A DNA stretch of 64,000 nucleotides. It comes from Dehalococcoidia bacterium (GTDB lineage: Bacteria > Chloroflexota > Dehalococcoidia > UBA2979). This document shows positions 1-16,442 of the stretch, one piece after another; position 1 is the stretch's first letter, and every line of letters begins with the position of its first letter. The notes below the pieces were generated by a model. The model was not told where the DNA came from and searched no databases. It worked only from the letters and a program-made list of their open reading frames with translations. The translations under genes and the position numbers were made by a program. The DNA is taken from the NCBI GenBank assembly GCA_963667465.2, contig CAXXDN010000002.1, positions 1,792,001 through 1,856,000 of the forward strand, in the 5' to 3' direction.

Positions 1-693
1 GCAGGGTTCGACAACCCATGCGTTCGGCCGGAGGTGAAGAGGACGCTCAGGAGCGCCACGCGAAAAGCCGGCAGGGCACAGAAGCAGGCCAAGGGGCTGA
101 CAGCAGACGGGCTCGCCGCGATCCGGTCGACAGCCTGCGAGCCGCGAGCCGGCAGGGGCGGGCGGCCGGAGAGTGCGGAGACTGCGGAGTCCCGAGGCAG
201 GCTGGACATCGCGGTAATCAGCCTCATGCGCGACGCCATGCTGAGGGTCTCAGAGGCCGCGGCCCTGACCTGGCTGGACATAGAAGAGGAACCTGACGGG
301 ACGGGGCGCCTCCTGATTCGGCGCTCCAAGACGGATCCTGAGGGTTCCGGTGTTGTCGCGTTCGTGTCCGCCCCGACCATGGAGGCGCTCGGATCGATAC
401 GAAACGGTGCCCCGACCAGCGCCAACATATTCGGGCTGCGGCCAAACCAGATGTCGAAGCGCATCAAGAAAGCCGCGCAGGCGGCGGGGCTCGGGGACGG
501 CTTCAGCGGTCACTCGCCACGGGTGGGGATGGCACAGGACCTTGTGCGGGCTGGCGTCGAGTTGCCCGGCCTCATGACGGCCGGGCGGTGGCGCACACCC
601 GCCATGCCAGCGCGCTATACCCGCAATGAGACCGCCAGCAGGGGCGCCATAGCGCAGTTCTACCGCACCTACCCCCTGGCCAGCCGAGCGTGA
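1..693 (+). CDS. Tyrosine recombinase, Cre-like (5' truncated by the window)
   Basis: Frame is open from base 1; catalytic motifs LRVSE, RRSKTD, GHSPRVG, GRW...RY (Trp at the second His position, as in Cre). Confidence 0.9.
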   Translation, partial: AGFDNPCVRPEVKRTLRSATRKAGRAQKQAKGLTADGLAAIRSTACEPRAGRGGRPESAETAESRGRLDIAVISLMRDAMLRVSEAAALTWLDIEEEPDGTGRLLIRRSKTDPEGSGVVAFVSAPTMEALGSIRNGAPTSANIFGLRPNQMSKRIKKAAQAAGLGDGFSGHSPRVGMAQDLVRAGVELPGLMTAGRWRTPAMPARYTRNETASRGAIAQFYRTYPLASRA

Positions 694-1093
694 GCGAGGA
701 CCAGGAGGAGTTTGCAGAGTATCAGTAGCCCGTAGTAGGCTCCGCCGGAGCAACCATCAATGCCGAGGAGTCAAGCGATGGATAACTGCACTTATTCTCG
801 CTTTGATTGTGAAGAACTGAACGACTAACCGCGTTCTTTAGTGACTGAAGCGGCCCCATCTTATCCTGCTCCTCGCGAAGCTGGTCGAAGACCACATAGC
901 TGCCTACTTGTATTGTACTCTTTGAGCTATTGTGTGGCAGTAATCGGACTGTAAGGAAACTGCATCAGCGCGACCGCATTTGACTCGACCTTGATGTAGC
1001 GCCGAATCCCGAGGATCCACCTCGGGGGTGCTGACTTACTGGCCCCGTGCGGGACCGTGCCTCTATCCAGGGAGGGTCCCTACCGGCCGCGAT

Positions 1094-1462
1094 TCATCGC
1101 TCGCTGCGCAGTCTCTCGCGGTGTTGAGCCCGAACGAACTTGATGAAGTTGTGAATCGACTCGACATCCTCAGGCGGGAGGCCGGTAACCGCGTCGCGGA
1201 ATGAGACCTCCGCGGCTTTGAGCAACTCGGACTCGACGACGGATTGCCCCAGGAGATGCTCGGGGCTCGTCTCGCAGTGGAACGCCACCTCGACGAGGTG
1301 TTCGTGCTGGGGCTTCATGCGCCCCGCCTCCCACGCCCAGACCGTGTGCGAAGCAACGCCGACGAGCTCACCGAGTTGGCGCTGGGTCAGGCCTACTCCC
1401 TTGCGCGCCTCACGGATGCGCGCCCCAAGGTCCTTCCAGCGGTATCCGCGATCCCTGGTCAT
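1094..1462 (-). CDS. XRE-family HTH repressor (cI-like, no S24 peptidase domain)
   Basis: LGARIREARKGVGLTQRQLGELVGVASHTVWAWEAG; ATG at 1462; divergent from the XRE trio. Confidence 0.88.
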   Translation of the reverse strand: MTRDRGYRWKDLGARIREARKGVGLTQRQLGELVGVASHTVWAWEAGRMKPQHEHLVEVAFHCETSPEHLLGQSVVESELLKAAEVSFRDAVTGLPPEDVESIHNFIKFVRAQHRERLRSER

Positions 1463-1514
1463 GCGTTGAGGGCCCCTGTCCTTCGCCCGCCGAGGGAGAT
1501 TGCGCCAACAGGAT

Positions 1515-1562
1515 AGAACGGGTGTTCTTGACATGCACTGTGGTCACGCATAGAGTACCACA
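1515..1562 (+). promoter_or_regulatory. Sigma70 promoter with LexA-type SOS box and an operator palindrome
   Basis: AGAAC-GGGT-GTTCT 1515-1528; TTGACA 1528-1533, 17 bp, TAGAGT 1551-1556; inverted repeat TGTGGT-N12-ACCACA 1539-1562 spanning the -10 box. Confidence 0.75.
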
Positions 1563-1600
1563 CTGTCCAGACGCAGATCATCGAGGAACTACGCACCGCC

Positions 1601-1843
1601 ATGCCCCGCCGTCGAGCCGTGGTCAGACTCAAGCCCGAGCCGCTCTGGGAGCGGTTGGCCGTTCTCGGTCGCTCCCAGAACTGGCTCGCGCGCGAGGCCG
1701 GGATCAGCCCCGGGTACCTGTCCATGCTCGTCAACGGCAAGCGCTCCCCATCTGGACGCCTCCGCCGGCGGTTGCAACGGATCCTCGAGGTGGAGGACTT
1801 CCATGAGCTGTTCACCTTCGGGTCCACGCCAGACGAACCGTAG
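1601..1843 (+). CDS. XRE-family HTH protein (Cro-like)
   Basis: SQNWLAREAGISPGYLSMLVNGKRSPS; GAGGA upstream. Confidence 0.85.
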   Translation: MPRRRAVVRLKPEPLWERLAVLGRSQNWLAREAGISPGYLSMLVNGKRSPSGRLRRRLQRILEVEDFHELFTFGSTPDEP

Positions 1844-1880
1844 GAGTTCGCCCCGGCTTCCGTTTCACGGCGGCGGACCG

Positions 1881-2153
1881 GTGATTGCTGGCCGTCCCGT
1901 GCCCTACCCGAGCGGCGAGTTGCCCGAGGACTTCCCGGAGCGGCTCGAACGGCTGAAGCACGCGAGTGGCCTCTCATGGGACGCCTTCGCCGAAGCCCTG
2001 GGCGTCGAACGCAAGCAGGTACTCCGCTGGCGTCGCGGCACCGAGCCCAGCGGCAGCGCCTACCACGCCCTCGTCGAGCTGGCCCGCTGGATCCCGGGCG
2101 GTATCGAGATCCTCTTCGGCGAGGACTTCTTCCCGTCCCCGGACGGGAGGTAG
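1881..2153 (+). CDS. XRE-family HTH protein
   Basis: FPERLERLKHASGLSWDAFAEALGVERKQVLRWRRG; start uncertain (GTG 1881). Confidence 0.8.
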   Translation: MIAGRPVPYPSGELPEDFPERLERLKHASGLSWDAFAEALGVERKQVLRWRRGTEPSGSAYHALVELARWIPGGIEILFGEDFFPSPDGR

Positions 2154-2156
2154 GTC

Positions 2157-2420
2157 ATGCCGCGACGTCGAGCGCGGCCCCGGCGGGTCGCCTACGCACA
2201 CCCCAACGGATTCGCCAGGAGCCTCGTCCGCATCAAAGAGGCGTCCGGTCTGACATGGGCGGCGCTCGCCCGCGAGCTCGGGACCACCACGCTCAACGTC
2301 TGGCGATGGCGGAAGGGCGTGCGCCCCAACGCGCACCACCTGCTCGCCCTCCAGGACCTGGCCCGTCGGATGGACCTCGAGCACCTACTACCGAGGGCGC
2401 ACGTGCGGCGGCGCCTGTAG
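2157..2420 (+). CDS. XRE-family HTH protein, paralogue of the upstream gene
   Basis: IKEASGLTWAALARELGTTTLNVWRWRKGVRP; GGGAGGT RBS. Confidence 0.85.
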   Translation: MPRRRARPRRVAYAHPNGFARSLVRIKEASGLTWAALARELGTTTLNVWRWRKGVRPNAHHLLALQDLARRMDLEHLLPRAHVRRRL

Positions 2421-2502
2421 GCGACAGGTCCATCATTGGAACCGCTACCAGGACGCGGACTCGGGCGACCGGTCCACTAGCGCCGACGGCCCGCTCGTCG
2501 CA

Positions 2503-5500
2503 TCAGGCTCCACTGAAGACGAACGCCGCCCAGAAGGATGGTGCGCTGTACCGTGCCGACCCATTCGAGACGCTCGACGACCGGCGGCCACGGGGCAGCG
2601 CGCGCAGTGGCGCTCGCATTGATTCATAAGCATCGAGCTCAGCTTCGTCCGCATCGCGCAGCCAGAGCTGAGCTTCGCGGAGCGCGGCCGCTGGTGGCCT
2701 CTTCGCGAGGAAGAGCTCCTCGTAGAACCTGGATACGATGAGGGCAGTTGCGAAGTCGTCCACCTCCCAGAGCGTCGAGATGACGCCTGCAGCCCCCGCG
2801 GCGACGAAAGCCGTCGCGAGGCCGAGAGCTTCATCCACCGCTTCGTACTCTTGGACCACACCTGTCTCGCACGCGGATGCGACCACGAGTCGGGCAGGGA
2901 TCTCCAGGCCGGCAACTTCGAGGGCGGAGAGTTCTTCCTCCCCTGAGAGCGACAGGGCCGCCGAGAGCAGTGGGTCCAAGAGTCCGCCTCCGCCGTGGCA
3001 GGCGAAGTGGACGTGCGTCGCTGGCGGCAGTACCTCCAACACCCGCTCCTTCGTCGCCTCTGCTCCCTTTAGCACCAGACTCTGTGCCGCCGGCACGAGT
3101 GCTTCAACGAGCTCGATCTCGAGTTCAGCTCCGTTGAGCGGGCGTGAGTGAGGGAGGGGGTTAGCGATCCCAACAAAACGAATCGGATCACTATCCTGCC
3201 GAGATGCGCGTTGCATGCAGGCGAGTTGGAGCCGAGCCGACGGGGCGAACGTCACATCGAAGTCGTCGATCAAGCACCGCTGACTCCCGGCAGGATCCCT
3301 CCAGGCAATAGCATGTAGCGGCATCAGCCCGAGGAGTCCCGCAGGGACCAGCGTGACACCGGACGCGCCGCGACCAGCCAGCGAGTCTGCGAGAGGGCGA
3401 AGCAGTTGTTCACCGATGAGGGGCGAGAGGGCCGCGATGGCTGTATCGAGATGCTCCGGCGCGTGCGCTTGGGCGGCCAGATATGCAGCCGAGCCCACGT
3501 GGGTCCCGTCCGCATCAAGACCCATCATCGCCATGCGAACGATCGCCTGCGAGTCACAATCAGGCGCGTGGATCGCCTCGACCTCTATGCCGGTATCGTC
3601 AGTTCTGTCCACGATGATCGCGAACGAGCCTCCGGGTGCGGAGCCTAGGTAGACGAGCGGCCGTTGGGGCTGTGCAACCTTGCCGATCCCATCGAGAGTC
3701 GGAGGATCAAGAGCCTTCTCGAAGGTTGGGATCTGTCGCAAAGCGGAGCGGATCCGCGCGAACCGCTCCGAGCGATCCGACGCTGAGCGGTCCTCCAAGC
3801 CGAGGATGTCCGCCCGGAACGAAGCGATCGCATTCTCAAGTTCGACACGCAGGCCCGGATCGAGGTGGGACAGCGCACCGAGATCGATGCTTTCGGCCAA
3901 CGTAAGCAAGCCGAGCTCCCTGGTTCGCCCGAGTTCCAGCGCCGTCACGGCCTTCTCTAGACGACCCGCGCGCACCAGTGCGTGTGCAGCGAAGCGAAAA
4001 TCTGTCGTGCTCTTGCTATGCTCCGACATCCGATCGTCGGCGTGCGAGTGGGTGGAGATCGCTGATGCTGCAGCCTCAATGAGGTGCTGTGCAGCATCTG
4101 CAGCGAGATCCACGTCGTCTCGCTCCTCTGCCAGCGCAATGAGGCGCCGACTGGCCTCGCGGGCCTCTGTCGGCCCCATGTCTGCCGACAAGGCGGTGAG
4201 TGCCATCTTCAGGGCTTCGATCGCGCCATCTTGATCGGCGCGTGCCGAGCGGATCTTTCCGATGGTGAACCATGCATGGCCAAAGCGGAGCGGCGACGCC
4301 CCCACCGGACTGAGTCGCACCGACTCCATGGCGCTCGCCTCGGCCCGATCTAGAAGCTCCGATTGATGAGCAGGGGCGATGCCAGCCAATTGCGAGAGCT
4401 GGTACTGCTGGGCGGCAAGATTGTGCTCGGCAGAAGCGAGGAGTGGGGCTTGGCTGGCAGAGCGCGCCCCGTCGCGCGCATTCGCGGTGTGACGGATGGC
4501 CCTACGCAGATTGGCCCCGCGATCGCCGGAGTCGGCACGCGCGTAGGCCATCCCAAGATGCAGTTGGGTGAAGGCCCAATTTCCGGGATCCCGCTCGCGT
4601 GACCGGTGATTCAGAGCAAGTTCAAGGTGTTCACGGGCCTGATCGACGTCACCTGCATCTCCGCGATTTAGAAGGAGGAGCGCGAGATTGGTCTGAGCCA
4701 TGGCCCAACTGTCGCGGTCGCCCGACTGCCATGACAGATCGATCGCGTCCCTGAGCAGTGTGATGCTCTGGGTGCGGCTCCATGCCGGATCGCCGCGCGG
4801 ACGGATCCCGAATGCCATGCTCAAGTTCATCAGAGTGGGGACTCGACGCTGCGGGTGATCGACGTCCGGGTGCGCGTCCAGGATCGAAATCACCATCCTG
4901 AGTAACTCGATGGCGCGTTCGATGTTCTGCTCGCGGTCTGCTCCCTCGCCCTCAAGGAGAGCCGCGGCTGTCCTGGCGGCTACTTCCGCCCGCCGCTCTG
5001 GATAGGTGCCCGACGGCAAGAAGTCCAGTAGATCTAGCCCGGCCTGAGCCAGTGCCTTCGGATCCGCTCCGCGCTTCGCATCCTCGAACGCGCGCTGCCG
5101 CGGAACGACCTCCTCATCCCAGAATCTGCGGATGACCGATTCGCGCACGGACCAGGCACCACTCAAGTCTCCCCGTCGGACGAGCTGCGCCGTTCGCAGC
5201 ATCGACTCGGCGAATCTCCGCCTGTCTTCAGTCGTGGCGCTTTCCAGATGCTGTCCGAGGCGCTGTTCCGCTTCGTCAGTCGCGATCTCCGGCCACCGCT
5301 CTACCACTTCGCGAAGTTGCTCCTCGCTCCCGACGAGCGCGAGGTCCTCAAGCCCACTCTCGATCCGCTGTCGCCTCTGATTGACCTCGATCGCCATCAG
5401 CAGTCTTCGATAAGCGGGTTCATGAGGAGCGGCGTCGCCTGCACCTGCTCTTAGCGCCTCGGCGTCGGCATCTATGTCCAGACCCACACCCGCCTCGAGC

Positions 5501-5850
5501 TCATCGAACGTAACCACTACGGGGGGGCCGGGGACTTCGCGAACGGCATCGCCCAACTCGTGTCGGACAACGGCGACTATATCGGCAAGGCCCTCGATTG
5601 GATCTAGATCGTCGTCGCTCGCGCGTGCCGCGATTAGAGGAGCTGCCTTCGCGAGGCGGAGCACAAGCAGCGGCATGGAGCGGTTCAGTGGCCGATCGCA
5701 ACTCGAGCACTTGGACTCGATCAGGTCCGGAAGTCGCTCAACCAGATCTGGGCGCTCAACGGCGTCGATCGCGAGCCACGTGACCTGCGAGGTCGCTTCG
5801 CCGCACCTAGCGCACTTCCAGTCCACGGTCCTGGCTTGGGATATCGGCAT
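2503..5850 (-). CDS. CpXC zinc-ribbon / TPR / CHAT (caspase-like protease) protein
   Basis: N-terminal CARC...CSSC pair; TPR-like repeats (WAMAQTNLA, WAFTQLHLGMAY); CHAT catalytic HFACHG and SACETG, LWEVDD, terminal FWAAFVFSG. ATG 5850 (upstream GTG 5886 possible). Confidence 0.9.
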   Translation of the reverse strand: MPISQARTVDWKCARCGEATSQVTWLAIDAVERPDLVERLPDLIESKCSSCDRPLNRSMPLLVLRLAKAAPLIAARASDDDLDPIEGLADIVAVVRHELGDAVREVPGPPVVVTFDELEAGVGLDIDADAEALRAGAGDAAPHEPAYRRLLMAIEVNQRRQRIESGLEDLALVGSEEQLREVVERWPEIATDEAEQRLGQHLESATTEDRRRFAESMLRTAQLVRRGDLSGAWSVRESVIRRFWDEEVVPRQRAFEDAKRGADPKALAQAGLDLLDFLPSGTYPERRAEVAARTAAALLEGEGADREQNIERAIELLRMVISILDAHPDVDHPQRRVPTLMNLSMAFGIRPRGDPAWSRTQSITLLRDAIDLSWQSGDRDSWAMAQTNLALLLLNRGDAGDVDQAREHLELALNHRSRERDPGNWAFTQLHLGMAYARADSGDRGANLRRAIRHTANARDGARSASQAPLLASAEHNLAAQQYQLSQLAGIAPAHQSELLDRAEASAMESVRLSPVGASPLRFGHAWFTIGKIRSARADQDGAIEALKMALTALSADMGPTEAREASRRLIALAEERDDVDLAADAAQHLIEAAASAISTHSHADDRMSEHSKSTTDFRFAAHALVRAGRLEKAVTALELGRTRELGLLTLAESIDLGALSHLDPGLRVELENAIASFRADILGLEDRSASDRSERFARIRSALRQIPTFEKALDPPTLDGIGKVAQPQRPLVYLGSAPGGSFAIIVDRTDDTGIEVEAIHAPDCDSQAIVRMAMMGLDADGTHVGSAAYLAAQAHAPEHLDTAIAALSPLIGEQLLRPLADSLAGRGASGVTLVPAGLLGLMPLHAIAWRDPAGSQRCLIDDFDVTFAPSARLQLACMQRASRQDSDPIRFVGIANPLPHSRPLNGAELEIELVEALVPAAQSLVLKGAEATKERVLEVLPPATHVHFACHGGGGLLDPLLSAALSLSGEEELSALEVAGLEIPARLVVASACETGVVQEYEAVDEALGLATAFVAAGAAGVISTLWEVDDFATALIVSRFYEELFLAKRPPAAALREAQLWLRDADEAELDAYESMRAPLRALPRGRRSSSVSNGSARYSAPSFWAAFVFSGA

Positions 5851-6150
5851 TTGGAACAGTCTCGGTTGCCGACGCAGCCCCGGCACTCATCCGTTGGAGG
5901 GCGGCGTTGATCGAAATCTCTTGAGCTTTGCGAATACCGCGAGGATCCCCAGCAGTCTCGCGCAACCGCGCTCCTCGACCAACCCTCCTCGCTCACCGGC
6001 TCTGACACGCCGGGGCCGTTCATGAATGAAGTCCCTTGCAGGGGACTCCGCGCGCGGGCCCGCGCCTCGACACTCCCCGCCCAGACTGTTGCACGATGCA
6101 CCCGACCCGCAGCTTCGCTGTCGCGCGCATCACACGGGCGAACAACCACC

Positions 6151-6366
6151 ATGGACCGCACACCTGACCGCGAGACTCGGGAAGCTCACGCCCCACGGAC
6201 TGCCGGAGAGCCGGCGGCCAAGGATGACGCCGTCGCGCTTGAGACCCGCTGGCGGACGGGTCCGCGAACACGGGCCTGGAGCGAACTCTGGCGCCGGCTC
6301 CTCGATGGGTTGCACGTCGCGCGGGCTAGCGATCGCCCCGCCACGGACGACGAGTCGGCATCGTAG
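6151..6366 (+). CDS. Small hypothetical protein upstream of the serine recombinase (possible directionality factor)
   Basis: Short ORF with amphipathic AWSELWRRLL motif, co-oriented with the recombinase; no clear RBS. Confidence 0.45.
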   Translation: MDRTPDRETREAHAPRTAGEPAAKDDAVALETRWRTGPRTRAWSELWRRLLDGLHVARASDRPATDDESAS

Positions 6367-6445
6367 GCGAGCCGCTGCTCAGCGAAGCTCACCCACGCGG
6401 CCGCAGTTGACGGCCGTCGTATCGTGATCCAGCGCCGGGAGGTGA

Positions 6446-8023
6446 ATGATGAAGGCGATTATCTACTCGCGCGTTTCGACGGACGCGCAGGAGCGCGACG
6501 GAACTTCGCTCGACACCCAGGAGCGTGCCTGCGCGGAGTACGCAACCGGGCAAGGTTGGGAGGTCGTCCGCCGCATCCGCGACACGGACAGCGGCGCTCT
6601 CCTCGAACGCGAAGGACTGACCGAACTGCGTGAAGCGCTCCGGCATGGGACGGCCGATGTGATCGTCGCCTTCGCCGTCGATCGCCTCTCGCGTAGCCAG
6701 AATCACATCGGCATCCTGTTCGACGAGTTCGAGGGCGCGGGCGTCACCATGGCCTTCGTGACCGAGCGCTTCGAGGACACGGCGGTCGGACGCTTCATCC
6801 TTGCCGCGCGCGCCTTCATCGCTGAGGTCGAGCGCGAGAAGATCGCTGAGCGCACGATGCGCGGCAAGGAAGAGCGCGCTCGCAGCGGTCGCATTCCCCA
6901 GGCGACAGGTCGCGGGATGTACGGCTACTGCTACGACTCCGACACCGGCCGTCGCGTCATCAACGGCGATCAGGCCGCTGTGGTCCGTCGTGTCTTCGAG
7001 GACTTCGCCGGCGGCGCGTCGATCATCGGCATTACCAACGCGCTCAACGAGGCAGGGACCCTGAGCTTCACAGGGCGAGCATGGTCGGCCTGGACCGTGA
7101 AGAACATGCTGCGCAACCCAGGGTATGCCGGGCGAACGATCTTCAAGCGCACGAAGACGGGCCACCGGCGCGATCCACTCACCGGCAAGCGGCGTCGCAC
7201 GGTCGCGCTGAGGAACGAGTCGGAGTGGATCGAGGTGCCGGACGCGACACCGGCGGTCATCTCCGAGCAGTTGTTCGATGCGGTGCAGACCCGGCTCCTC
7301 GACCCGGAGCGGCGGCGCCAGGCACAGCGTAAGAACGATTATCCCCTCCGTGGCACCGTGCGTTGCTCACACTGCCACAGCGCGATGGTGGGCCAGACGT
7401 CGATGGGCAAGTACCGCTACTACCGCTGCCGGCGGGCCTACGCGGGTCCGCGCCACGACCGCTGTCCTGCGCGGTACGTCCGCGCAGGTGACCTCGAGCG
7501 TGCGGTGGCGCGCGAGCTCACCACGGTGCTCGCCTCGCCGGAGGTGGTGCTGGCCGAGCTGGAGCATGCGTCCTCAGACGACGCGCGCGATGATGACTTG
7601 AGCGCCGCCCAGCAACTCGTCGCGTCGCTCGACGATCAGCGACAGCGGCTGCTCAAGCTCTTCCAAATGGGCGAGGTCGATGAGGCGTACCTGCAGAAGG
7701 AACTCGAGACGATCCGCGTCCGACGCTCGCCGGCCGAGGCGACCATCGCTCGACTGAACGGCTCGGGCTCGACGCCCCGCATTCCGGCGAACCCCGACGA
7801 GTTCGCCGCCACATGTGAGGCGCTGCGGGAGCGCGTCGCGGAGGAAGTCAAGGCGGGTCGGCTCAATGAAGTCGCCGAGGCGATGCAGATCTCGATCACG
7901 ATCGCGCGAACCGGCGACGGAGCGTCAGGCGCGCTCGAGGGCGTGATCCCGCACGAAATCGGTAGATTTGGCGAGGATTTTTCTCACCACTGCACGAACA
8001 TCGGCATGACGACGTGGGTGTAG
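6446..8023 (+). CDS. Large serine recombinase (integrase)
   Basis: YSRVST catalytic Ser, DRLSR, recombinase domain, zinc ribbon CSHC...YRC...C, coiled coil; GGAGGT RBS. Confidence 0.95.
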   Translation: MMKAIIYSRVSTDAQERDGTSLDTQERACAEYATGQGWEVVRRIRDTDSGALLEREGLTELREALRHGTADVIVAFAVDRLSRSQNHIGILFDEFEGAGVTMAFVTERFEDTAVGRFILAARAFIAEVEREKIAERTMRGKEERARSGRIPQATGRGMYGYCYDSDTGRRVINGDQAAVVRRVFEDFAGGASIIGITNALNEAGTLSFTGRAWSAWTVKNMLRNPGYAGRTIFKRTKTGHRRDPLTGKRRRTVALRNESEWIEVPDATPAVISEQLFDAVQTRLLDPERRRQAQRKNDYPLRGTVRCSHCHSAMVGQTSMGKYRYYRCRRAYAGPRHDRCPARYVRAGDLERAVARELTTVLASPEVVLAELEHASSDDARDDDLSAAQQLVASLDDQRQRLLKLFQMGEVDEAYLQKELETIRVRRSPAEATIARLNGSGSTPRIPANPDEFAATCEALRERVAEEVKAGRLNEVAEAMQISITIARTGDGASGALEGVIPHEIGRFGEDFSHHCTNIGMTTWV

Positions 8024-9117
8024 CGGTCGTCGCCGACGGGGCGGAGGACGCCGGGGCTTGAGGGGGAGCTGGTTTCGACGGCGACCCGGTCGGCGTCGAG
8101 GACTTGCAGGACCTCGGTCAGATAGCGGCTGTTGAAGGCGATCTTCGCCTCCTCGCCTTCGACGATGGCGTCCAGCTCACCTTCGTTGTTGCCCAGCTCT
8201 TCGGCGCGCGCGGTGATCAGCAGCCGACCGGGCGCGGCGTCCTCGCCCGGGGTGGCGACGAGCCGCACGATGCCGGATCCGTCGCGCGCGAAGATCGAGG
8301 CGATGCGCGTCTCTCGCATGAACTCGGCGACGGCGATCTCGGTCCGCGTGGCGTGCGCGCTGGGAATCAACTGGTCGTAGTTGGGGAACGTGCCCTGCAA
8401 CAGCGTGGCGCTCAGCGTCGCGTGGCCGAGGTCGAAGAGCACCTGCGTGCCGACGGCGTTGAAGCGCATCTCCACCGGGTCCTCGACCTCGGCGAGCATC
8501 CGCGCCAGTTCGCCGAGGGCGCGCGCGGGGACGATCGCCTCGCGCTCGGGGGGACTGCCTTCGAGCTCCATCGTGTGGACCGCGAGGCGAAAGCCGTCGG
8601 CGGCGGCGAGGCGCAACTGGTCACCCTTGATGCCGAAGTGGACGCCGGTGAGCACCGGCCGGGAGTTGTCCGTCGCAGCGGCGAAGACCACCTGGTTGAT
8701 TGCGCGCCGAAGCGCGGCCGGATCGAGGGTGAGCGAGTCTCCGTCCTCGACCGGGGGGATGGGCGGGAAGTCGTCCGCGCTCTGCCCGCCGATGGAGGCC
8801 TCGTTGCGGGCACAGGAGAGGCTGACCTGGCGCGAGCGTTCGGCCAGCGAGAGGTTGATCGGCTGCTGCGGGAGCGAGGCGACGAAGTCGGAGAGCAGCC
8901 GCGAGGGGAGCGTGATCGCCCCGGCTTCCTCGGTGTCGGAGGCGATCGTGTAGGTGATCGCGATCGTCTCGGCATCCGTCGCCGAGAGCGTGAGGCTCGA
9001 GTCGCCCGACTCGAGCAGGATGTGACCGGCGATGGGGAGCGAAGATCGCGCTGGTACGGCGCGCGACACGGCGCTCAGGCCGCGGTGAAGGGCTTCCTGT
9101 TGGACCGTAAGCTGCAT
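7984..9117 (-). CDS. dnaN: DNA polymerase III beta sliding clamp
   Basis: 377 aa; SRPVLTGV, AADGFRL, GTFPNY, IAFNSRYL, VVMPM. Confidence 0.97.
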   Translation of the reverse strand: MQLTVQQEALHRGLSAVSRAVPARSSLPIAGHILLESGDSSLTLSATDAETIAITYTIASDTEEAGAITLPSRLLSDFVASLPQQPINLSLAERSRQVSLSCARNEASIGGQSADDFPPIPPVEDGDSLTLDPAALRRAINQVVFAAATDNSRPVLTGVHFGIKGDQLRLAAADGFRLAVHTMELEGSPPEREAIVPARALGELARMLAEVEDPVEMRFNAVGTQVLFDLGHATLSATLLQGTFPNYDQLIPSAHATRTEIAVAEFMRETRIASIFARDGSGIVRLVATPGEDAAPGRLLITARAEELGNNEGELDAIVEGEEAKIAFNSRYLTEVLQVLDADRVAVETSSPSSPGVLRPVGDDRYTHVVMPMFVQW

Positions 9118-9728
9118 GGGCGAGCCCGACCCGCCTAATCGCTCAAGCGCTGCGCGCTTTCGCCCGCTAGGCGAGTATACGGGTGAGCACCAGCCGCGGC
9201 AATGCGGCGGATCGCATCATTGGATCTGTTACCAAGATCAGGCGGGGTGCATCAGAACGGAGTTACCGAACGGCCATAGGTTGTCGAGGTCAGTGAGTTC
9301 AGCAGCGGAGCGGCTCGTGCTCTTGCGGGGAGCAGTACCGTGACGAGCCGCAGCTAGCACTCGACGAATCCTATCGGGGAACAGCCTTTCAGTGCGCATC
9401 TCGTCAACCAATGCCGTGAGGTTGGCCCGGACTTGGCGCTGAACGGCCAGAGGGGTTGTTCCGCTGCTTCCCGCCAACGCCTGCTCGACGGCACTACGGA
9501 CCCGGGCCTGCCCTGCCTCCCGCTCAACACGGCTTCGGCAATAGCCGCACGTATCAGGGCGTCTACAATAGCGGGCAGGGGCGGTTGATCGATATCAGCG
9601 CGCCATAGGCTGGGAGTTTGCAGCCGCGGCCGTGGTCCGATGCGCTCAGTACGGCATGCCGTTGCGCGCGTCCCATCCGACTCTTCTGCAGGGAAGCGGG
9701 GTTGGCGATCCGTCAGCGTTCGAAGGCT

Positions 9729-10013
9729 GTGGCGCACGCTTTCGCCCGTTGCTCAGTCGCGCTGGCGGGCCTCGGCGGGTTCGTGCTGGCCTGGAGCCTC
9801 TGGGCCGTCGTGATCGCCCGGCGGGCCCCCGTGCCAGACGAAGCCGTACTCTGGGGAGTCCTGACTACCAGCGTGCTGGTACCTACCGTAGCCTCGGCAG
9901 CGGCCGTTTGGCGCCCATCGTTGCTCCCGGCGCTCGCGGCGCTCCTTTGCGGAGCGCTCTTGTTGATGCCCGCCTCACTGTTTTGGCTGATCCGGCTCAA
10001 CGCCTCCTCGTAG
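9729..10013 (+). CDS. Possible small membrane protein
   Basis: Three hydrophobic segments in ORF 9618..10013; start uncertain; no family recognised. Confidence 0.3.
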   Translation: MAHAFARCSVALAGLGGFVLAWSLWAVVIARRAPVPDEAVLWGVLTTSVLVPTVASAAAVWRPSLLPALAALLCGALLLMPASLFWLIRLNASS

Positions 10014-10076
10014 CCATAGCGACCGATCGCGGTGAGCCGCCACCTTACGCTCGCCGTCGCGCGCGGCTCCGCCTCC

Positions 10077-10102
10077 GTTGCCGCGTGTTCTCGCGCGGCA
10101 AC
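10077..10102. terminator. GC-rich hairpin in the intergenic region
   Basis: GTTGCCGCG-N8-CGCGGCAAC, 9-bp perfect stem; no U-tract. Confidence 0.3.
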
Positions 10103-10220
10103 CATAGAAGCGCACTGCGGCGCGGTCAGGGAAACCGATTTGTGATGCAGCGAAAGCGCGGTACGGTAACAGTTACTTCTGATGCACTGCAATGCGGCGT
10201 CACAGGGCCCACCCGGACCG

Positions 10221-11900
10221 CTACGAGCAGTAGGGCGTGAACAGCTCCGCGGCCGCGCGCACGCGGCGCACGAGCGTCGCATGGCTGGCGTGCTCGCCCA
10301 GCTCGGAACCGACGCCGGCCAGGAGCTCGGACACTGCATCGAGGCTGCCGCACTGCGCCCAGTACGACGTGCGCAGCAGCTCGGCGAACTCCGCAGCGGC
10401 GGCGGTCTGGCGGAAGTGCGGACTGGCCGCTCCGATCTCCGCGGCGATCGCGGCCACCGTGATGCCCTCCTCGATCTCGACCGGCCGCCCGCTCGAGGGG
10501 TTGAGCCAGCGCAGCCGGGCGGTCGCCAGCGCGGCGTCGGGGGCGGCGCCTTCCTGCAGGCGCAGCTCGTAGAGGGCGGTCACGTCGCGCGCGAAGCCGG
10601 GCTCGCCGAAGTCGAGCGAGTCGTCGCGGAAGTCCTCGTCGGACACGGCGCGGTTCTCGTAGCCGATCAGCCGGTACTTGCGGACCGTGGCCGGGTTGAA
10701 CTCCAACTGGATGCGGGCGTCGCGCGCGGTCTCCGTGAAGACGCCCTGGGCGCTCTCCTCCAGGAAACGGTCAGCGGCCGCGCGGTCGGCGAGGTAGTGG
10801 TACGTACCGTTGCCGCGGTTGGCGAGCGCCTCCAGCAGCACGTCGTTGTAGTTGCCGCTGATACCGACGCCGATCGAGGTGAGGGCGGCATTGCGCTGCG
10901 CCTGCACGTCGACGAGCTCCAGGATCGACTCGGGACCGGTCGCGCCGACGTTGGCGACGCCGTCCGAGAGCAGGACGATCCGGGCCTGCCGGCCGCGCTC
11001 GAGATCGGCCGCGGCGAGCCGGTAGGCGAGGCGCAGGCCTTCTTCGGCGTAGGTGCTGCCGCCCGTGGCGAGGGCACGCGCGGCGCTCGCGATCTCCTCG
11101 CGGCGATCCCCGTCCACGAAGTCGCTGACGAGGCTGGCGCGCGATCCGTAGCTGACGAGGGCGGCTCGGTCCCTCGGGCCCAGCAGCTCGACCAGGCCCG
11201 CGATCACCTCGCCGGCCACACCGATCCGGTTGTCCGCCTCCATCGAGCCGGAGACGTCCACGACGAAGATCAGCGAGACGGGGCCTCGCTCCTCCGGGGG
11301 CGCGGGGTTGCTGACGCCGACCCGCAGCAGCACGTAGTCCTCCGGCCCGAAGGGCGAAGGCGCGGCGTCCAGGTGCAGGCCCAGGGCGCCCCCGGCGGCC
11401 GGGTAGTCCTGCGGGAGGCTGTTGATGAACTCCTCGACCCGCACGGCGTCCGGTGGCGGCAGGGCGCGCTGCCCGAGGTAGAGCCCGAGGATCTCGTAGG
11501 ACGCCGTGTCGCCGTCGAGGGCGAAGGTCGAGAGCGCGTCCTCGTCGGCATCGATGAACGGATTGACACCGTGGCCCTTGAAGAACATCAGGGGCAGCGG
11601 CCGGTCGTTGGGGTTGGCCGAGCCACCGGCCTCCGGCGGGATCGCCGGCGGCGCCTGCTGAGCCGCCTGGACCGCAGCCGCCGGCGCCGCCGAGGCCGGC
11701 GCCGCCTGGCGCTCGGTGCTGGCCGCCTGCGGGGCCTCGAACTCGTCCTCGCCGCAGCCGCTGAGCACGAGGCCGGCCGCGAGCGCAGCCAGGGCGAGCG
11801 TCCCGGACACGATCCGTCCCGCCCCGCGCGCGCCCGTCGCGAGCCGGACGAGGGTCGCGAAGGACAGGACGCTGCCGATTGCGAGGACCAATGCTCTCAT
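10221..11900 (-). CDS. YfbK-like von Willebrand factor A lipoprotein
   Basis: Lipobox LSGC; STFALDGDTASY, VRVEEFIN, MIDAS DVSGSM, LLSDGVAN, YRLIGYENR, AAAEFAELLR. Confidence 0.9.
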   Translation of the reverse strand: MRALVLAIGSVLSFATLVRLATGARGAGRIVSGTLALAALAAGLVLSGCGEDEFEAPQAASTERQAAPASAAPAAAVQAAQQAPPAIPPEAGGSANPNDRPLPLMFFKGHGVNPFIDADEDALSTFALDGDTASYEILGLYLGQRALPPPDAVRVEEFINSLPQDYPAAGGALGLHLDAAPSPFGPEDYVLLRVGVSNPAPPEERGPVSLIFVVDVSGSMEADNRIGVAGEVIAGLVELLGPRDRAALVSYGSRASLVSDFVDGDRREEIASAARALATGGSTYAEEGLRLAYRLAAADLERGRQARIVLLSDGVANVGATGPESILELVDVQAQRNAALTSIGVGISGNYNDVLLEALANRGNGTYHYLADRAAADRFLEESAQGVFTETARDARIQLEFNPATVRKYRLIGYENRAVSDEDFRDDSLDFGEPGFARDVTALYELRLQEGAAPDAALATARLRWLNPSSGRPVEIEEGITVAAIAAEIGAASPHFRQTAAAAEFAELLRTSYWAQCGSLDAVSELLAGVGSELGEHASHATLVRRVRAAAELFTPYCS

Positions 11901-11989
11901 CTGGGGCCTCCCGGGATGCGAATCCGGTGCGGGCCGGCGCGGGCCGGTGCGGAGCACTTGCCCGCCGCCAACCCGCTGTTACCGATACG

Positions 11990-12015
11990 TACGTCCCGGG
12001 GCGGTGATTAGTTCC
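11990..12015 (-). promoter_or_regulatory. ECF-sigma-type promoter
   Basis: GGAACT-N16-CGTA on the minus strand, upstream of the vWA lipoprotein. Confidence 0.55.
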
Positions 12016-12085
12016 CGAAGCCCGCGCAGGCGGGTCTGCGGGAGGCGCGGACGGGGCTGGCGGTCGCGGGCGTAGGACCGGGGCG

Positions 12086-13405
12086 CTACGCCTCGGGGGC
12101 GGCCTCGCGGAGCGCGGCGGCGAGCGCCTCGACGGTGCGCTCGATCAGCGCTTCGTCGTGGGCGAGGGAGACGAACCAGGCCTCGAACTGCGAGGGCGGC
12201 AGCATGACGCCCCGCTCGAGCAAGGCGCGGTGGAAGCGGGCGAAGCGCTCGGTGTCGCTCTCGGCAGCCTCCGCGTAGTCGCCGGGCGCCCCGGCGCGGA
12301 AGAAGCCGGTCAGCGCCGACCCGGCGCGCGCGACGGCGAAGGGCACGCCCGCCGCCCGCGCCGCCTCGGTGACGCCGGCCTCGAGCTGCGCGCCGAGCGC
12401 TTCGAGGCGCGCGTACGCGGCCTCGTCGGCCTGCACCGTGCGCAGCGTCGCGAGGCCGGCGGCCGTCGCGAGCGGGTTGCCGGAGAGCGTGCCGGCCTGA
12501 TAGACGCCGCCGGCGGGGGCCATTTGCTCCAGCAGCTCGCGTGGGCCGCCGTAGGCGCCGACGGGCAGGCCGCCGCCGATCACCTTGCCGAGCGTCGTGA
12601 GGTCCGGACGCACGCCGTAGCGGCCCTGCGCGCCGGACCAGCCGACGCGGAAGCCGGTGATCACCTCGTCGAAGACGAGCAGCGCGCCGTGCGCGTCGCA
12701 GAGCCGCCGCAGGCCCTCGAGGTAGCCGTCGCGCGGCGGGACGACGCCCATGTTGCCGGCGACGGGCTCGACGATGACGGCGGCGACGGCGCCGGGGTGC
12801 GCCTCGAAGATCGCCTCGACGGCCGTGGCGGCGTTGTAGGGGGCGAGCAGCGTCTGCGCGGCGAAGGCGGCGGGCACGCCGGGCGAGTCCGGCAGCCCGA
12901 GGGTTGCGACGCCGGAGCCTGCGGCGGCGAGCAGGCCGTCCGAGTGGCCGTGGTAGCCACCCTCGAACTTCACGATCAGATCGCGCCCGGTAGCCGCGCG
13001 GGCGAGCCGCAGCGCGCTCATCACCGCCTCGGTCCCGGAGTTGACGAAACGCACCATCTCCACCGAGGGCAGCGCCTCGACGATCAGTTCGGCCAGCTCC
13101 AGCTCGGCCTCCGTCGGCGCGCCGAACGAGGTGCCGCGCGCCGCCGCCTGTCCGACCGCCTCGACCACCGCCGGGTGGGCGTGGCCGAGGATCAGCGGGC
13201 CGAACGACCCGAGGTAGTCGATGTACTCGTTGCCGTCAGCGTCGGCGACGATGGCGCCCGCGCCGCGGTCGAGCACCAGCGGGTCGCCACCGACGGCGCG
13301 GTAGGCGCGCGCCGGCGAGTTGACGCCGCCGGGAAGCACCGCCCGCGCCCGCGCCATCAGCGCGCGCGAGCGTTCGAGCGAGCGGCCGCCGGCCTCGGCG
13401 CTCAC
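12086..13405 (-). CDS. hemL: Glutamate-1-semialdehyde 2,1-aminomutase
   Basis: [44 protein letters not shown]. Confidence 0.97.
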
Positions 13406-14208
13406 GAGGCGACCGCGCTCGGCAGCAGCACGCCGAGCGCCTCCGCCAGCTCGGGGAGTGTGTCGATCGCGAGGGCCGGCGCCGGGTAGTCCTCGGCCAG
13501 CTCGGCGTCCTCGCTGCGGCGCACCCAGGCGACGGGCAACCCGGCACGGTTCCCGCCCAGCACATCGGCCTGGGGCGAGTCGCCGACGTAGAGCACCTCG
13601 GCGGGCGCGCAGCCGAGGCGGAGGCAGGTGACCTCGAAGACCGTGCGGTGCGGCTTGTAGGCGCGGAGCGACTCGGAGCTTTGAATCACGGAGAAGCGCA
13701 GCCGGTTGTGCGAGACCGCGCTCTGCAGGAAGTCCTCGTCCGCGTTGGAGAGCAGGGCGAGGCGGTAGCCCGCGGCAGCGAGGGCGTCGAGCACCTCGCG
13801 CGTGCCGGGGTAGGCGGGAGCGTGGCTCAGCACCTCGCGGAAGTGGTTCGCGCCGGCGGCCGGGTCGCCCTCGAGGCCCTGGTCCTCGAAGACCCGGGCG
13901 AACTGCCGCCGCCAGATCTCCCAGGTCGTGATGAACTCGGGCACGGGGCCGTCGAGCATGTACTCGCGGTCCGGCTTGCCCTCGTCGTCGACGCGGTCGC
14001 CCCAGGGGCTGACGCTGTTCCAGGCCTTCTCGAAGCCCTTCGCGGCCTCCTCGAAGTCCTCGACGGCGAGGCCTTGCTGGTCGAGCGCTTCGCGGAGCGC
14101 CTCGCGGAAGTCCCAGTCGAGGAGCGTGCCGTAGCCGTCGAAGGCCACGGCGCGGATGGCGCCCGCGTCGAAGGCGGGCGCCGCGGGGGCGCCGTTGTCT
14201 GTCGTCAC
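13402..14208 (-). CDS. HAD-family hydrolase
   Basis: [21 protein letters not shown]...D. Confidence 0.88.
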
Positions 14209-15203
14209 CGCGTCTCGCGTAGCCAGCGCGCCGCCTCCTTCGCGTGGTACGTCAGCAGGATGTCGGCGCCGGCGCGGCGGATCGAGGTCAGCGCCTCGAG
14301 GATCGCGCCGCGTTCGTCGATCCAGCCATTGGCGGCCGCCGCCTTCAGCATCGCGTACTCGCCGGAGACGTTGTACGCCGCGAGCGGCAGTTCGGTCGAG
14401 TCACGCACCGCGCGCACAACGTCGAGGTAGGCGAGCGCGGGCTTCACCATGACGATGTCGGCCTGCTCCGCGATGTCGATCGCGACCTCGCGCACGGCCT
14501 CGCGCACGTTGGGCGGGTCCAGCTGGTAGCCGCGCCGGTCGCCGAACTGCGGGGCGGAGTCGGCGGCCTCGCGGAAGGGGCCGTAGAAGGCGGAAGCGTA
14601 CTTCGCGCTGTAGGCCATGATCGGCAACTGCGCGAAGCCGGACTCGTCGAGCGCCTCGCGAATCGCGGCCACGCGCCCGTCCATCATGTCCGAGGGCGCG
14701 ACCATGTCCACGCCCGCCTCGGCGAGCGAGACCGAGGTGCGCGCGAGCAGCTCGATCGCGGCGTCGTTCTCCACCTCGCCGCGGGCGTTGATCGGGCCAC
14801 AGTGCCCGTGGTCGGTGTACTCGCAGAGGCAGACGTCGGCGATCACGGCCAGCGAGGGGTCGGCCTGCTTGAGCGCCTCGCTGGCGCGCTGCGTGATGCC
14901 GTCGTTCGCCCAGGCGCCACTGCCCGCGGCGTCCTTGAGGTCGGGCACGCCGAACAGCAGCACCGCGCGCACGCCGAGTTCGTGCAGCTCAGCAGCCTCC
15001 GAGGCGAGCATGTCCGTCGAGAGGCGCGCCTGCCCCGGCATCGACTCGATCGGCTGGCGGATGCCGGAGCCCTCGGTGACGAACAGCGGGTAGACGAAGG
15101 AGGCGGGGTCGAGCCGGGTCTCGCGGACCAGCCCGCGCAGCGCCTCGGAACTGCGCAGCCTCCTCGTGCGCGCGAAGTCCCGCGTACGTGTCGCGATGGT
15201 CAT
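14205..15203 (-). CDS. hemB: Porphobilinogen synthase
   Basis: [43 protein letters not shown]. Confidence 0.97.
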
Positions 15204-16192: not shown

Positions 16193-16442
16193 GCCTCCCC
16201 CGCCGCGTATCTTCGCAGCGCCGCAACGAGTGCGTCGACCGAGGCGCGGTCGGCGACGACTTGCGGCGGCAGGCCCGCCTCGACTCGATCGGCTGGCGGA
16301 TGCCCGAGCCCTCGGTGACGAACAGCGGGTAGACGAAGGAGGCGGGGTCGAGCCGCGTCTCGCGGACCAGCCCGCGCAGCGCCTCGGAACTGCGCAGCCT
16401 CCTCGTGCGCGCGAAGTCCCGTGTACGTGTCGCGATGGTCAT
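16182..16442 (-). pseudogene. Chimeric remnant: hemB 5' fragment fused out of frame to a cobA-hemD 3' fragment
   Basis: [10 protein letters not shown]...IRQPIES is identical to the HemB N-terminus, then the DNA switches to the cobA-hemD tail. Confidence 0.88.

What the first reader, a model, noticed from the sequence alone, without database searches (positions are those of the whole stretch)
7975..8023. Integrase borrows its C-terminus and stop codon from the antisense strand of dnaN
Seen: the convergent ORFs overlap by 40 bp (7984-8023); the last residues HHCTNIGMTTWV* are the reverse complement of dnaN ...YTHVVMPMFVQW*. Known: phage Mx8 has attP inside its int gene, so integration changes the integrase C-terminus. 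Inference: attP lies inside this recombinase gene, so integrated and excised forms encode different tails, which could switch activity or stability. The target is the 3' end of an essential, conserved gene.
Basis: partly seen in the sequence, partly recalled or inferred. Interest (0 to 1): 0.72.

Follow-up and report, generated by a model that had tools for sequence, protein, structure and literature searches.

The report
Recombinase gene that spans its attachment site
A mobile element sits in the last codons of the essential gene dnaN, and because its recombination site lies inside its own recombinase gene, insertion swaps the enzyme's tail for a few codons read from dnaN's opposite strand.

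Summary
A 525-aa large serine recombinase (LSR, 6446-8023 +) and dnaN (7984-9117 -) converge and overlap by 40 bp. The LSR belongs to a roughly 70-kb conjugative element inserted in the dnaN 3' end.

Comparison with the nearest relative (empty for this insertion), with tandem junctions in five genomes, and with the dyad symmetry of rebuilt attP sites places the crossover at GG 8003-8004. That is the CC of the Pro codon in dnaN ...VMPMFVQW*, 20 nt inside the LSR frame. The element's own arm re-supplies dnaN's last five codons. dnaN supplies the LSR's last five codons (MTTWV) and its stop.

In the excised form the frame would instead run 19 codons into the far arm of attP. Far arms of three sequence families show a coding signature in the frame of their cognate LSR, which is frame A, B or C. 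This suggests the long form is the selected protein. The signal is strong for two families and modest for the window's own.

At least 104 of 120 homologues end in dnaN-derived codons. The closest precedents are Dehalococcoides ssrA islands (DsiB) and phage Mx8. What the tail swap does remains untested. I rate this a new variant of a known kind.

The parts
6446..8023 (+). Large serine recombinase gene, integrated-state form (525 aa). The last 19 nt are host DNA.
   Evidence: ORF. Pfam Resolvase, Recombinase and Zn_ribbon_recom, E 2e-32 to 9e-15. AF2 model has mean pLDDT 80.4, with residues 506-525 below 50.
7984..9117 (-). dnaN (beta sliding clamp), 377 aa. Its last five codons and stop (7984-8001, plus base 8002) are supplied by the element.
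   Evidence: It is the single dnaN match in the genome. The C-terminus MPMFVQW occurs in 19 of 20 loci of relatives. The last ~12 nt co-vary with the type of neighbouring element.
7977..8002 (.). Recombinase-side arm of attP (26 nt). It has three roles at once: LSR codons ...FSHHCTNI, the recombinase half-site, and an antisense copy of the dnaN tail.
   Evidence: It mirrors the far arm (16 of 26 positions complementary at the GG centre, against 2-13 at the other 12 offsets tested). The same arm with the same LSR type occurs in G002, G012, G013, G010, G014 and G018.
8003..8004 (.). Inferred central (crossover) dinucleotide GG. This is CC of the Pro codon of dnaN.
   Evidence: It is the dyad centre of 6 rebuilt attP sites. 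It is bracketed by a T/C polymorphism on its right, with T at three independent tandem junctions, and by a C/G polymorphism on its left that goes with the LSR type. Inferred, not shown biochemically.
8005..8023 (+). Host-derived end of the LSR frame: third base of the Gly codon, MTTWV and TAG, read from the antisense of dnaN codons R-Y-T-H-V-V-M.
8005..8030 (.). dnaN-side arm of the junction (host half-site).
   Evidence: It is identical in G001, G009, G010 and G004 at the dnaN junction whatever element is inserted.
1..8004 (.). Right-hand 8 kb of the integrated conjugative element. Its probable left end is genome contig C2:1730128, about 61.9 kb to the left of the window.
   Evidence: An a-type far arm lies at C2:1730129. 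A type IV secretion / relaxase module lies at C2:1766137-1784208, by 76-86% nt identity to the Pfam-annotated module of the older element. GC is 0.58-0.71 in 1-8000, against mostly 0.69-0.78 for 8001-20000 (four 500-nt windows fall to 0.59-0.64).

Best explanation
The ORF is the large serine recombinase (LSR) of an integrative conjugative element of about 70 kb inserted in the 3' end of dnaN, in a Chloroflexi-type genome.

The element's attP is built into the end of the LSR gene. The last roughly 26 nt before the crossover form the recombinase-side half-site and also carry, on the other strand, a copy of dnaN's last five codons and stop. The remaining 19 codons of the LSR lie on the far arm of attP.

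Recombination at the central GG (window 8003-8004) therefore does two things. It rebuilds dnaN exactly (...VMP|MFVQW*). It also replaces the LSR's own 19-codon tail with five codons and a stop read from the antisense of dnaN.

Far arms are conserved as protein in the frame of their cognate LSR. So the long, excised-state protein is the one under selection, and the chromosomal copy makes a tail-swapped isoform.

Shown: the overlap, the family-wide pattern, the empty/occupied comparison, the dyad centre, and the coding signature of the far arms. Inferred: the exact crossover dinucleotide, that the element still excises, and that the tail matters. My guess for its role is that it tunes integration versus excision, or protein stability, so that the enzyme changes once the element is in the chromosome.
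For: Empty versus occupied. G001 (dnaN 99% identical) has dnaN directly joined to an LSR 96% identical to the second LSR of this genome. Relative to that, G000 carries an 84,755-bp block between two copies of the core AACATCGG.

Tandem copies of the dnaN tail lie downstream of dnaN in G000 (2), G001 (3), G009 (3), G010 (3) and G013 (2). There are 46 such sites in 17 of 19 genomes of the genus, and 0 for the reversed-pattern control.

Dyad symmetry of rebuilt attP peaks at GG: 13-16 of 26 positions in 6 pairs, against 2-13 at the 12 other offsets.

Tails: 5 codons in the integrated form against 19 (type A) or 30 (type B) with the element's own far arm.

Coding signature beyond the half-site, measured as the synonymous fraction of differing codon pairs:
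- d-type arms (16): 0.44 in frame B, against 0.09-0.19 in the other forward frames and 0.10-0.34 in reverse frames. 0 of 500 column shuffles reach it.
- c-type arms (4): 0.39, against 0.04-0.12 in the other forward frames and 0.06-0.24 in reverse frames. 1 of 500 shuffles reach it.
- a/b-type arms, the window's own kind (13 distinct): 0.46-0.50, against 0.09-0.18 in the other forward frames (reverse frames not tested). 17 of 500 shuffles reach it, and the stop is kept in 12 of 13.

The motif LPFRRTFAR sits in frame B in c-type arms and in frame C in the two e-type arms whose LSRs read in frame C. In my manual pairing, the conserved frame of the far arm equals the frame of the LSR in 9 of 10 elements with an intact LSR.

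Family-wide, 37+3+20+4+40 of 120 homologues end in dnaN-derived codons in four reading modes.

Conjugation genes: TrbL/VirB6, a VirB4-like ATPase, a coupling protein and Replic_Relax, with the paralogous module in this element.
Against: There is no direct evidence of excision or of a circular form. All runs that hold the locus are kept as contigs only.

The coding signal for the window's own arm type is modest (17 of 500 shuffles). Most a-type copies are close relatives, so the counts are not independent.

Three homologues of the same LSR type stop ten codons earlier, at ...HH. The last 30 residues are the least conserved part of the family. AF2 gives no structure for the tail in either form (pLDDT below 50: residues 506-525, and 499-546 of a natural read-through ORF). 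A dispensable tail is therefore still possible.

One of 10 pairs (G014 site 1) breaks the frame rule.

The dnaN-side site has its own best dyad 3 nt away from GG.

The junction I take as this element's left end (C2:1730129) has a decayed partner arm, so the element may no longer excise on its own.
Confidence: 0.7

Rival explanations
1. Neutral by-product. attP does lie in the end of the LSR frame, but the residues after the last structured hairpin (about residue 498) are a dispensable linker. Any tail will do, and the apparent conservation of far arms reflects DNA-level constraints (half-site, terminator hairpin, recent common descent).
For: The att core is crossed in all three frames and in both orientations across the family. 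Three type-A homologues stop at ...HH before the core. Column conservation is lowest in the last 30 residues. AF2 predicts both tails disordered. The first ~25 nt of each far arm must be conserved as a binding site anyway. McMurdie et al. judged the DsiB overlap unlikely to encode a functional region (PMC3146451, passage read).
Against: Beyond the half-site, substitutions are concentrated at third positions of the LSR's own frame. The synonymous fraction is 0.39-0.48 there and exceeds nearly all column shuffles. The same peptide motif follows the LSR into frame C in two elements. Stop positions are conserved: 30 codons in 4 c-type and 2 e-type arms, and 19 codons in 12 of 13 a/b arms.
Confidence: 0.2
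2. The far arm encodes an independent small protein (19 aa, MKLRSCEKGCARLYLALSF in the a-type) and not the end of the LSR. The LSR's true end would then be irrelevant.
For: The a-type frame starts with ATG right after the core. At two decayed junctions in this genome and one in G014, GGAGG-like stretches lie 6-9 nt upstream. At the far junction the older LSR's TGA overlaps this ATG (ATGA), an arrangement that allows coupling.
Against: c-, d- and e-type arms have the coding signature but no start codon at their beginning, so they can only be read as continuations of an upstream frame. The frame of the conserved peptide tracks the frame of the LSR (9 of 10 pairs).
Confidence: 0.07
3. Chance convergent overlap or an ORF-calling artefact, unrelated to recombination.
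For: High-GC genomes have many long spurious frames.
Against: The LSR has full domain architecture and 544 homologues at E<=0.001. The overlap recurs in 10 of 20 loci and in most homologues. The junction coincides with an insertion boundary relative to G001.
Confidence: 0.01

Closest known systems
Dehalococcoides ssrA-specific genomic islands and their large serine recombinase DsiB (McMurdie et al. 2011, PMC3146451; passages read)
   Same: Same phylum. An LSR sits at the edge of the island and reads outward. [quoted passage not shown] The islands form tandem arrays bounded by a ~20-bp copy of the target's 3' end within about 100 kb, and include LSR-less islands. The authors raised the idea that the enzyme may be fully functional only on the circle.
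   Different: The target here is the 3' end of a protein-coding essential gene (dnaN), so the arm must also encode five exact amino acids on the other strand. The elements carry a type IV secretion module, whereas the authors considered ssrA-GIs mobilisable but not conjugative. No small DsiA-like second recombinase was looked for. They reported divergent tails, whereas here the far-arm codons show purifying selection. Homology of this LSR to DsiB was not tested.
Myxophage Mx8 integrase with attP inside int (review PMC6070905, passage read)
   Same: attP lies within the integrase coding sequence. Integration creates a recombinant gene with a new 3' end, and the altered protein remains active with changed properties.
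   Different: Mx8 Int is a tyrosine recombinase. Its targets are attB sites in the M. xanthus chromosome (recalled to be tRNA genes; the passage read does not say), not dnaN. In Mx8 the functional difference has been shown experimentally; here it has not.
Classical phage large serine integrases such as phiC31, Bxb1 and A118/LI (recalled, not looked up here; PDB relatives)
   Same: Same domain plan: resolvase catalytic domain, recombinase domain, and zinc ribbon with a coiled coil. attP is about 50 bp with dyad arms around a non-palindromic central dinucleotide.
   Different: In those phages attP lies beside the int ORF, not inside it (recalled), so the protein is the same in both states. Sequence similarity to solved structures stops at residue ~366.
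Islands that split and rebuild a target's 3' end, such as tRNA/tmRNA islands and SGI1 at trmE (abstracts of PMC4383910 and PMC8409611 seen in the listing)
   Same: The element carries a replacement for the displaced 3' end, so the essential target stays intact. Copies of the fragment mark island borders.
   Different: Those elements mostly use tyrosine integrases with long identity blocks. Here an LSR uses a 2-bp centre, and the shared core is about 8-13 nt.
Lambda sib retroregulation (recalled)
   Same: Sequence on the far side of attP from int is joined to int only in the non-integrated state and changes int expression.
   Different: sib acts at the RNA level, outside the ORF. Here the far arm is read as protein. 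A hairpin in the a-type arm is only weakly supported.

Membership tests
Large serine recombinases | N-terminal resolvase-type catalytic domain with the conserved Ser/Arg residues | tested here: met
   PF00239, E 2e-32, residues 4-149. R9, S11, R83 and others are invariant in 57 aligned homologues.
Large serine recombinases | Recombinase domain followed by a zinc ribbon domain with a coiled-coil insertion | tested here: met
   PF07508 and PF13408. Four invariant Cys: C307, C310, C328, C340. Long helices 378-407 and 413-439 in the AF2 model; the coiled coil rests on that prediction only.
Large serine recombinases | attP of about 50 bp with imperfect dyad arms around a non-palindromic central dinucleotide shared with attB | tested here: met
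   Rebuilt attP sites have 13-16 of 26 arm positions complementary at centre GG in 6 pairs. The core AACATCGG is shared by both junctions. The dnaN-side site has a better dyad 3 nt off-centre, which is unexplained.
Large serine recombinases | Cleavage and exchange at the 2-bp centre; directionality set by an RDF | not testable with these tools
   No biochemistry was possible, and no RDF candidate was sought.
Integrative conjugative elements | Integrase plus a type IV secretion system, coupling protein and relaxase in one integrated block | tested here: met
   In the older element: TrbL/VirB6, TraG P-loop/AAA_10 (VirB4-like), TrwB and Replic_Relax. This element has a collinear module at 76-86% nt identity, C2:1766137-1784208; its proteins were not scanned separately.
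Integrative conjugative elements | Excision to a circle and transfer | not testable with these tools
   Only contigs of public runs were available. No circular junction of this element was seen.
Elements with attP inside the integrase gene (Mx8 int, Dehalococcoides dsiB) | Crossover inside the ORF, so that the stop codon of the integrated copy comes from the target or from a neighbouring element | tested here: met
   The stop TAG at 8021-8023 lies in dnaN antisense. At tandem junctions the same LSR types end in the neighbour's far arm.
Elements with attP inside the integrase gene (Mx8 int, Dehalococcoides dsiB) | The two isoforms differ in activity | not testable with these tools
   The only evidence is indirect: purifying selection on far-arm codons.
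Dehalococcoides DsiB clade | Sequence membership in the DsiB/CcrB-like clade | not tested
   No DsiB sequence was at hand from a tool. Named homologues are only 'recombinase family protein [Chloroflexi / Dehalococcoidia bacterium]'.
Target-restoring genomic islands | A displaced original 3' fragment of the target at the distal border | tested here: inconclusive
   Copies of the dnaN tail mark internal junctions. In all five genomes inspected the most distal copy still follows an LSR 3' end. No distal border with host flank was found in G000.

The most novel reading that the evidence does not exclude
The gene's topology is itself a state sensor. Only the circular element encodes the full-length recombinase, whose short basic/hydrophobic C-terminal peptide is needed for (or restrains) one direction of recombination or sets protein half-life. 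Integration into dnaN clips it off. That would give a large family of dnaN-targeting serine recombinases (antisense classes A/B/C and a sense-oriented marine class) a built-in, RDF-independent layer of directionality control.
Probability: 0.3. Interest if true: 0.8.

Novelty: new variant of a known kind. Interest (0 to 1): 0.6.

Why it matters
Large serine recombinases are the main tools for one-way insertion of large DNA, and how they set direction is a central question.

This family has its attachment site written into the last codons of the enzyme. One 26-nt stretch must simultaneously be a recombinase half-site, the enzyme's C-terminal linker, and (on the other strand) the last five codons of the sliding clamp. 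The comparative data turn an old speculation about DsiB, that the enzyme may be fully functional only on the circle, into a testable claim with defined isoforms (525 aa versus the long form) and defined sites.

The work also identifies the dnaN 3' end as a hot spot. Conjugative elements and LSR-less cassettes with defence-type cargo pile up there in arrays of up to about 200 kb. I found no paper naming dnaN as a serine-recombinase target (searches; library limits apply).

Tried and rejected
Rfam scan of the far junction: no family matched.

Terminator idea for the a-type arm hairpin. One copy has z -3.05; two other copies have z 0.07 and -1.55. I kept it only as a weak candidate.

Zinc-knuckle idea (HHC ... 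CxxxC across the core): rejected. HHC is forced by the antisense of the dnaN codons Q-W-stop, and it is HHW in some homologues.

AF2 of a natural read-through ORF (L117:127-1764:-, alignment A2): the whole tail 499-546 has pLDDT below 50. The alignment is shallow there, so this says nothing either way about docking.

PDB sequence search: matches reach only to residue ~366.

Search for the distal border of the array in this genome: no third copy of the core and no c-, d- or e-type far arm.

Public runs: 20 rows hold the stretch or part of it, from 8 studies, and all are kept as contigs. No RNA holder is listed. One contig of run X8 joins an LSR end like the window's, at 8008, to a c-type far arm. 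That could be a tandem junction or an attP, so it is not decisive. Many contigs match only 7986-8022.

The search for related loci in genome contigs with P0050: one distant locus (33% identity), not used.

The genome search with P0050 in relatives: only the antisense-class LSRs of the genus were found, in 13 of 31 genomes. None were found in the 12 genomes of other families at E<=1e-60.

Literature on LSRs with attP in the gene, beyond DsiB (listing only): nothing relevant.

Supplements of PMC3146451 (DsiB alignments) could not be seen and may bear on how variable DsiB tails are.

The arm families (a/b, c, d, e), the LSR frame types and the tail regexes were defined by eye after seeing the data. 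The 9-of-10 pairing is my manual reading. It leaves out sites on fragmented contigs (G002, G006, G012, G016, G018 C1) and elements whose LSR is a remnant.
Full report
**What is there.** The window is G000:C2:1792001-1856000. ORF 6446-8023 (+) encodes a 525-aa protein with Resolvase, Recombinase and Zn_ribbon_recom domains. ORF 7984-9117 (-) is dnaN, with all three beta-clamp domains. The two converge and share 40 bp. The recombinase ends ...HHCTNIGMTTWV-TAG and dnaN ends ...YTHVVMPMFVQW-TGA. dnaN is the only copy found in the genome. Its C-terminus MPMFVQW is kept in 19 of 20 loci of relatives, down to 52% overall identity. Integration has therefore not altered the clamp.

**The surroundings.**
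- The genome holds a second recombinase of the same family at C2:1713653-1715251, 54% identical in protein. It also ends in a 23-nt copy of the dnaN tail.
- The nearest relative, G001 (dnaN 99% identical), has a 96%-identical copy of this second recombinase directly against dnaN.
- The G001 junction equals the left half of the G000 far junction plus the right half of the window junction. So G000 differs by an 84,755-bp block inserted (or G001 by its loss) within the shared core AACATCGG.
- Inside that block, three copies of a ~60-116-nt unit mark left ends, at C2:1715251, 1724248 and 1730129.
- The first two intervals are short cassettes with no recombinase. They carry DUF6791-ThiF, AbiEii/AbiEi, a KAP NTPase and Fic.
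- The third interval (C2:1730128-1800004, about 70 kb) ends with the window's recombinase. It contains a module collinear with, and 76-86% identical to, the type IV secretion / coupling protein / relaxase module of the older element.
- Both large elements are therefore integrative conjugative elements stacked at dnaN.

**Generality.**
- In 10 of 20 dnaN loci a long convergent frame enters dnaN. The overlap is 40 nt (frame A, 4 loci including this one), 26 nt (frame B, 4 loci) or 78 nt (frame C, 2 loci).
- A degenerate 19-nt pattern for the dnaN tail finds 46 sites in 17 of 19 genomes of the genus, and none for the reversed control.
- The sites lie in arrays that reach 218 kb downstream of dnaN in G001 and about 200 kb in G014.
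- Of the 120 best database homologues, the tails read the dnaN end as follows: antisense frame A in 37, stopping just before the core in 3, frame B in 20, frame C in 4, the sense strand shifted by one base in 40, and none of these in 16 (regexes written after seeing the tails).
- The sense class was checked at DNA level. In 7 of 7 marine metagenome loci that include a recombinase 3' end, a 22-nt dnaN-tail-like stretch (0-2 mismatches) sits in sense orientation at the end of a recombinase frame.
- Close homologues are labelled Chloroflexi. The runs that hold the window are sponge metagenomes or sponge-labelled runs.

**Where the crossover is.** Three observations agree on the dinucleotide GG at 8003-8004, which is CC of the Pro codon of ...V-M-P-M-F....
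- (i) Identity between the two G000 junctions is limited to AACATCGG plus (C/T)ATGA.
- (ii) The base after GG is T at three independent tandem junctions with three different upstream recombinases (G000, G012, G018). It must be C wherever dnaN follows, because that position is the Met codon. So T belongs to the incoming far arm. The base before GG (C or G, giving I or M in the recombinase) goes with the recombinase type.
- (iii) When each element's recombinase-side arm is joined in silico to its own far arm, complementary positions peak at that centre. The counts are 16, 16, 14, 16, 13 and 14 of 26 in six pairs, against 2-13 at the 12 other offsets. Three pairs with d-type arms are weaker, at 9-11.

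The dnaN-side site has its own best dyad 3 nt to the right (11-14 of 20). I cannot explain this.

**Consequence for the two genes.** The element supplies base 3 of the Pro codon, M-F-V-Q-W and the stop of dnaN (7984-8002). The last ~12 nt of dnaN indeed co-vary with the type of neighbouring element and not with the host. dnaN supplies base 3 of the recombinase's Gly codon, MTTWV and TAG (8005-8023). With the element's own far arm the frame would instead continue for 19 codons. The natural translation of the arm at C2:1715251 is MKLRSCEKGCARLYLALSF, and the arm at C2:1730129 differs at three residues. Frame-B recombinases of G001 and G010 would gain 30 codons each, ending at the same position.

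**Is the long tail real protein?** The far arms fall into families by sequence:
- a/b-type: 13 distinct copies.
- c-type: 4 copies.
- e-type: 2 copies.
- d-type: 16 copies.

Beyond the first ~25 nt, which must be conserved as a half-site, substitutions follow a codon pattern in one frame only.
- d-type: the mean pairwise difference per site is 0.29, 0.17 and 0.41 at codon positions 1, 2 and 3 of frame B. The synonymous fraction of differing codon pairs is 0.44, against 0.09 and 0.19 in the other forward frames and 0.10-0.34 in reverse frames.
- c-type: the synonymous fraction is 0.39, against 0.04-0.12 in the other forward frames and 0.06-0.24 in reverse frames.
- a/b-type: the synonymous fraction is 0.46-0.50 in frame A, against 0.09-0.18 in the other forward frames (reverse frames not tested).
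- Column shuffles reach the observed value in 0, 1 and 17 of 500 trials respectively.

The d-type peptide reads like ...F-R-x-D-K-I-E-R-V-P-V-V-V-T-V-A-L.... The c-type peptide contains LPFRRT(I/F)xR. In the two e-type arms the same LPFRRTFAR lies one base further from the centre, in frame C, which is the frame of the recombinases those arms belong to. Pairing each intact recombinase with the far arm of its own element, the frames agree in 9 of 10 cases. The exception is G014 site 1 (manual pairing, and the elements are related). c-, d- and e-type arms have no start codon at their beginning, so they can only be read as continuations of an upstream frame.

**Limits.**
- The signal for the window's own arm type is the weakest.
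- Three homologues of its type stop before the core.
- The family's conservation is lowest in the last 30 residues.
- AlphaFold places the last structured element at a hairpin, residues 483-498. It gives pLDDT below 50 for 506-525 of the window protein and for 499-546 of a natural read-through ORF of G001.
- The tail is therefore, at most, a short linear motif.
- No read evidence for a circle or an empty site could be obtained, since only contigs are held.
- The left junction of this element has a decayed partner arm, so its present mobility is open.

**Comparison with what is known.**
- McMurdie et al. 2011 (PMC3146451, passages read) described tandem islands at the 3' end of ssrA in Dehalococcoides, also in the Chloroflexi. 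Their large serine recombinase gene dsiB always overlaps attL, with its stop codon in ssrA or in the neighbouring island. They raised the possibility that DsiB is fully functional only on the circle, and noted divergent tails.
- The present case is the same kind of arrangement with four differences. The target is an essential protein-coding gene whose last five codons must be copied exactly. The carrier is conjugative. The family is large and crosses the core in four reading modes. There is comparative evidence that the codons beyond the core are selected.
- I found no paper naming dnaN as a serine-recombinase target.

**Verdict.** This is a new variant of a known kind, of moderate to good interest.

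Noticed in passing
window 1-693 (+): The 3' part of a tyrosine recombinase gene (Phage_integrase, E 2e-11) lies inside the conjugative element. It could be a second integration system or a nested element.
   Followed up: no
window 2503-5886 (-): A 1127-aa CHAT-domain protein (E 2e-51) is encoded next to the recombinase, divergently transcribed from it across a 560-nt spacer.
   Followed up: no
G000 C2:1715250-1730127 (left of the window; L023:2250-17127): Two short cassettes without a recombinase are each bounded by an a-type far arm and a decayed recombinase 3' remnant. They carry DUF6791-ThiF, AbiEii/AbiEi, a KAP NTPase and Fic. This is defence-type cargo accreted at dnaN.
   Followed up: partly
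window 7990-8025 and the same site in G001, G009, G010, G013: The dnaN coding sequence itself has an imperfect palindrome centred on AT of CATG (11-14 of 20 positions), 3 nt from the inferred crossover.
   Followed up: partly
L023:11220-11250 and 17100-17130; L029:1470-1500: At decayed junctions the stretch before the ATG of the 19-codon far-arm frame has become GGAGG-like. The peptide might be translated on its own once the recombinase is gone.
   Followed up: no
G018 contig C2:1916040 and 1997331 (L097, L053): Two att-like sites 81 kb apart, with recombinases of this family, lie on a contig other than the one carrying dnaN. This is either an array away from dnaN or an assembly effect.
   Followed up: no
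G026:C131:4546-4626: In a genome of another family of the class, a copy of the last 27 dnaN codons (85% identity) lies about 0.5 kb downstream of dnaN. The site may also be used outside the genus.
   Followed up: no
L065 and L072 (marine metagenome contigs): Two recombinase genes converge on a single dnaN-tail-like site, one reading it in sense and one in antisense. This is expected if elements of the two orientation classes sit side by side.
   Followed up: partly
window 9118-10220: No dnaA lies next to dnaN. The next gene upstream is a VWA/YfbK-type protein (10221-11957, -).
   Followed up: no
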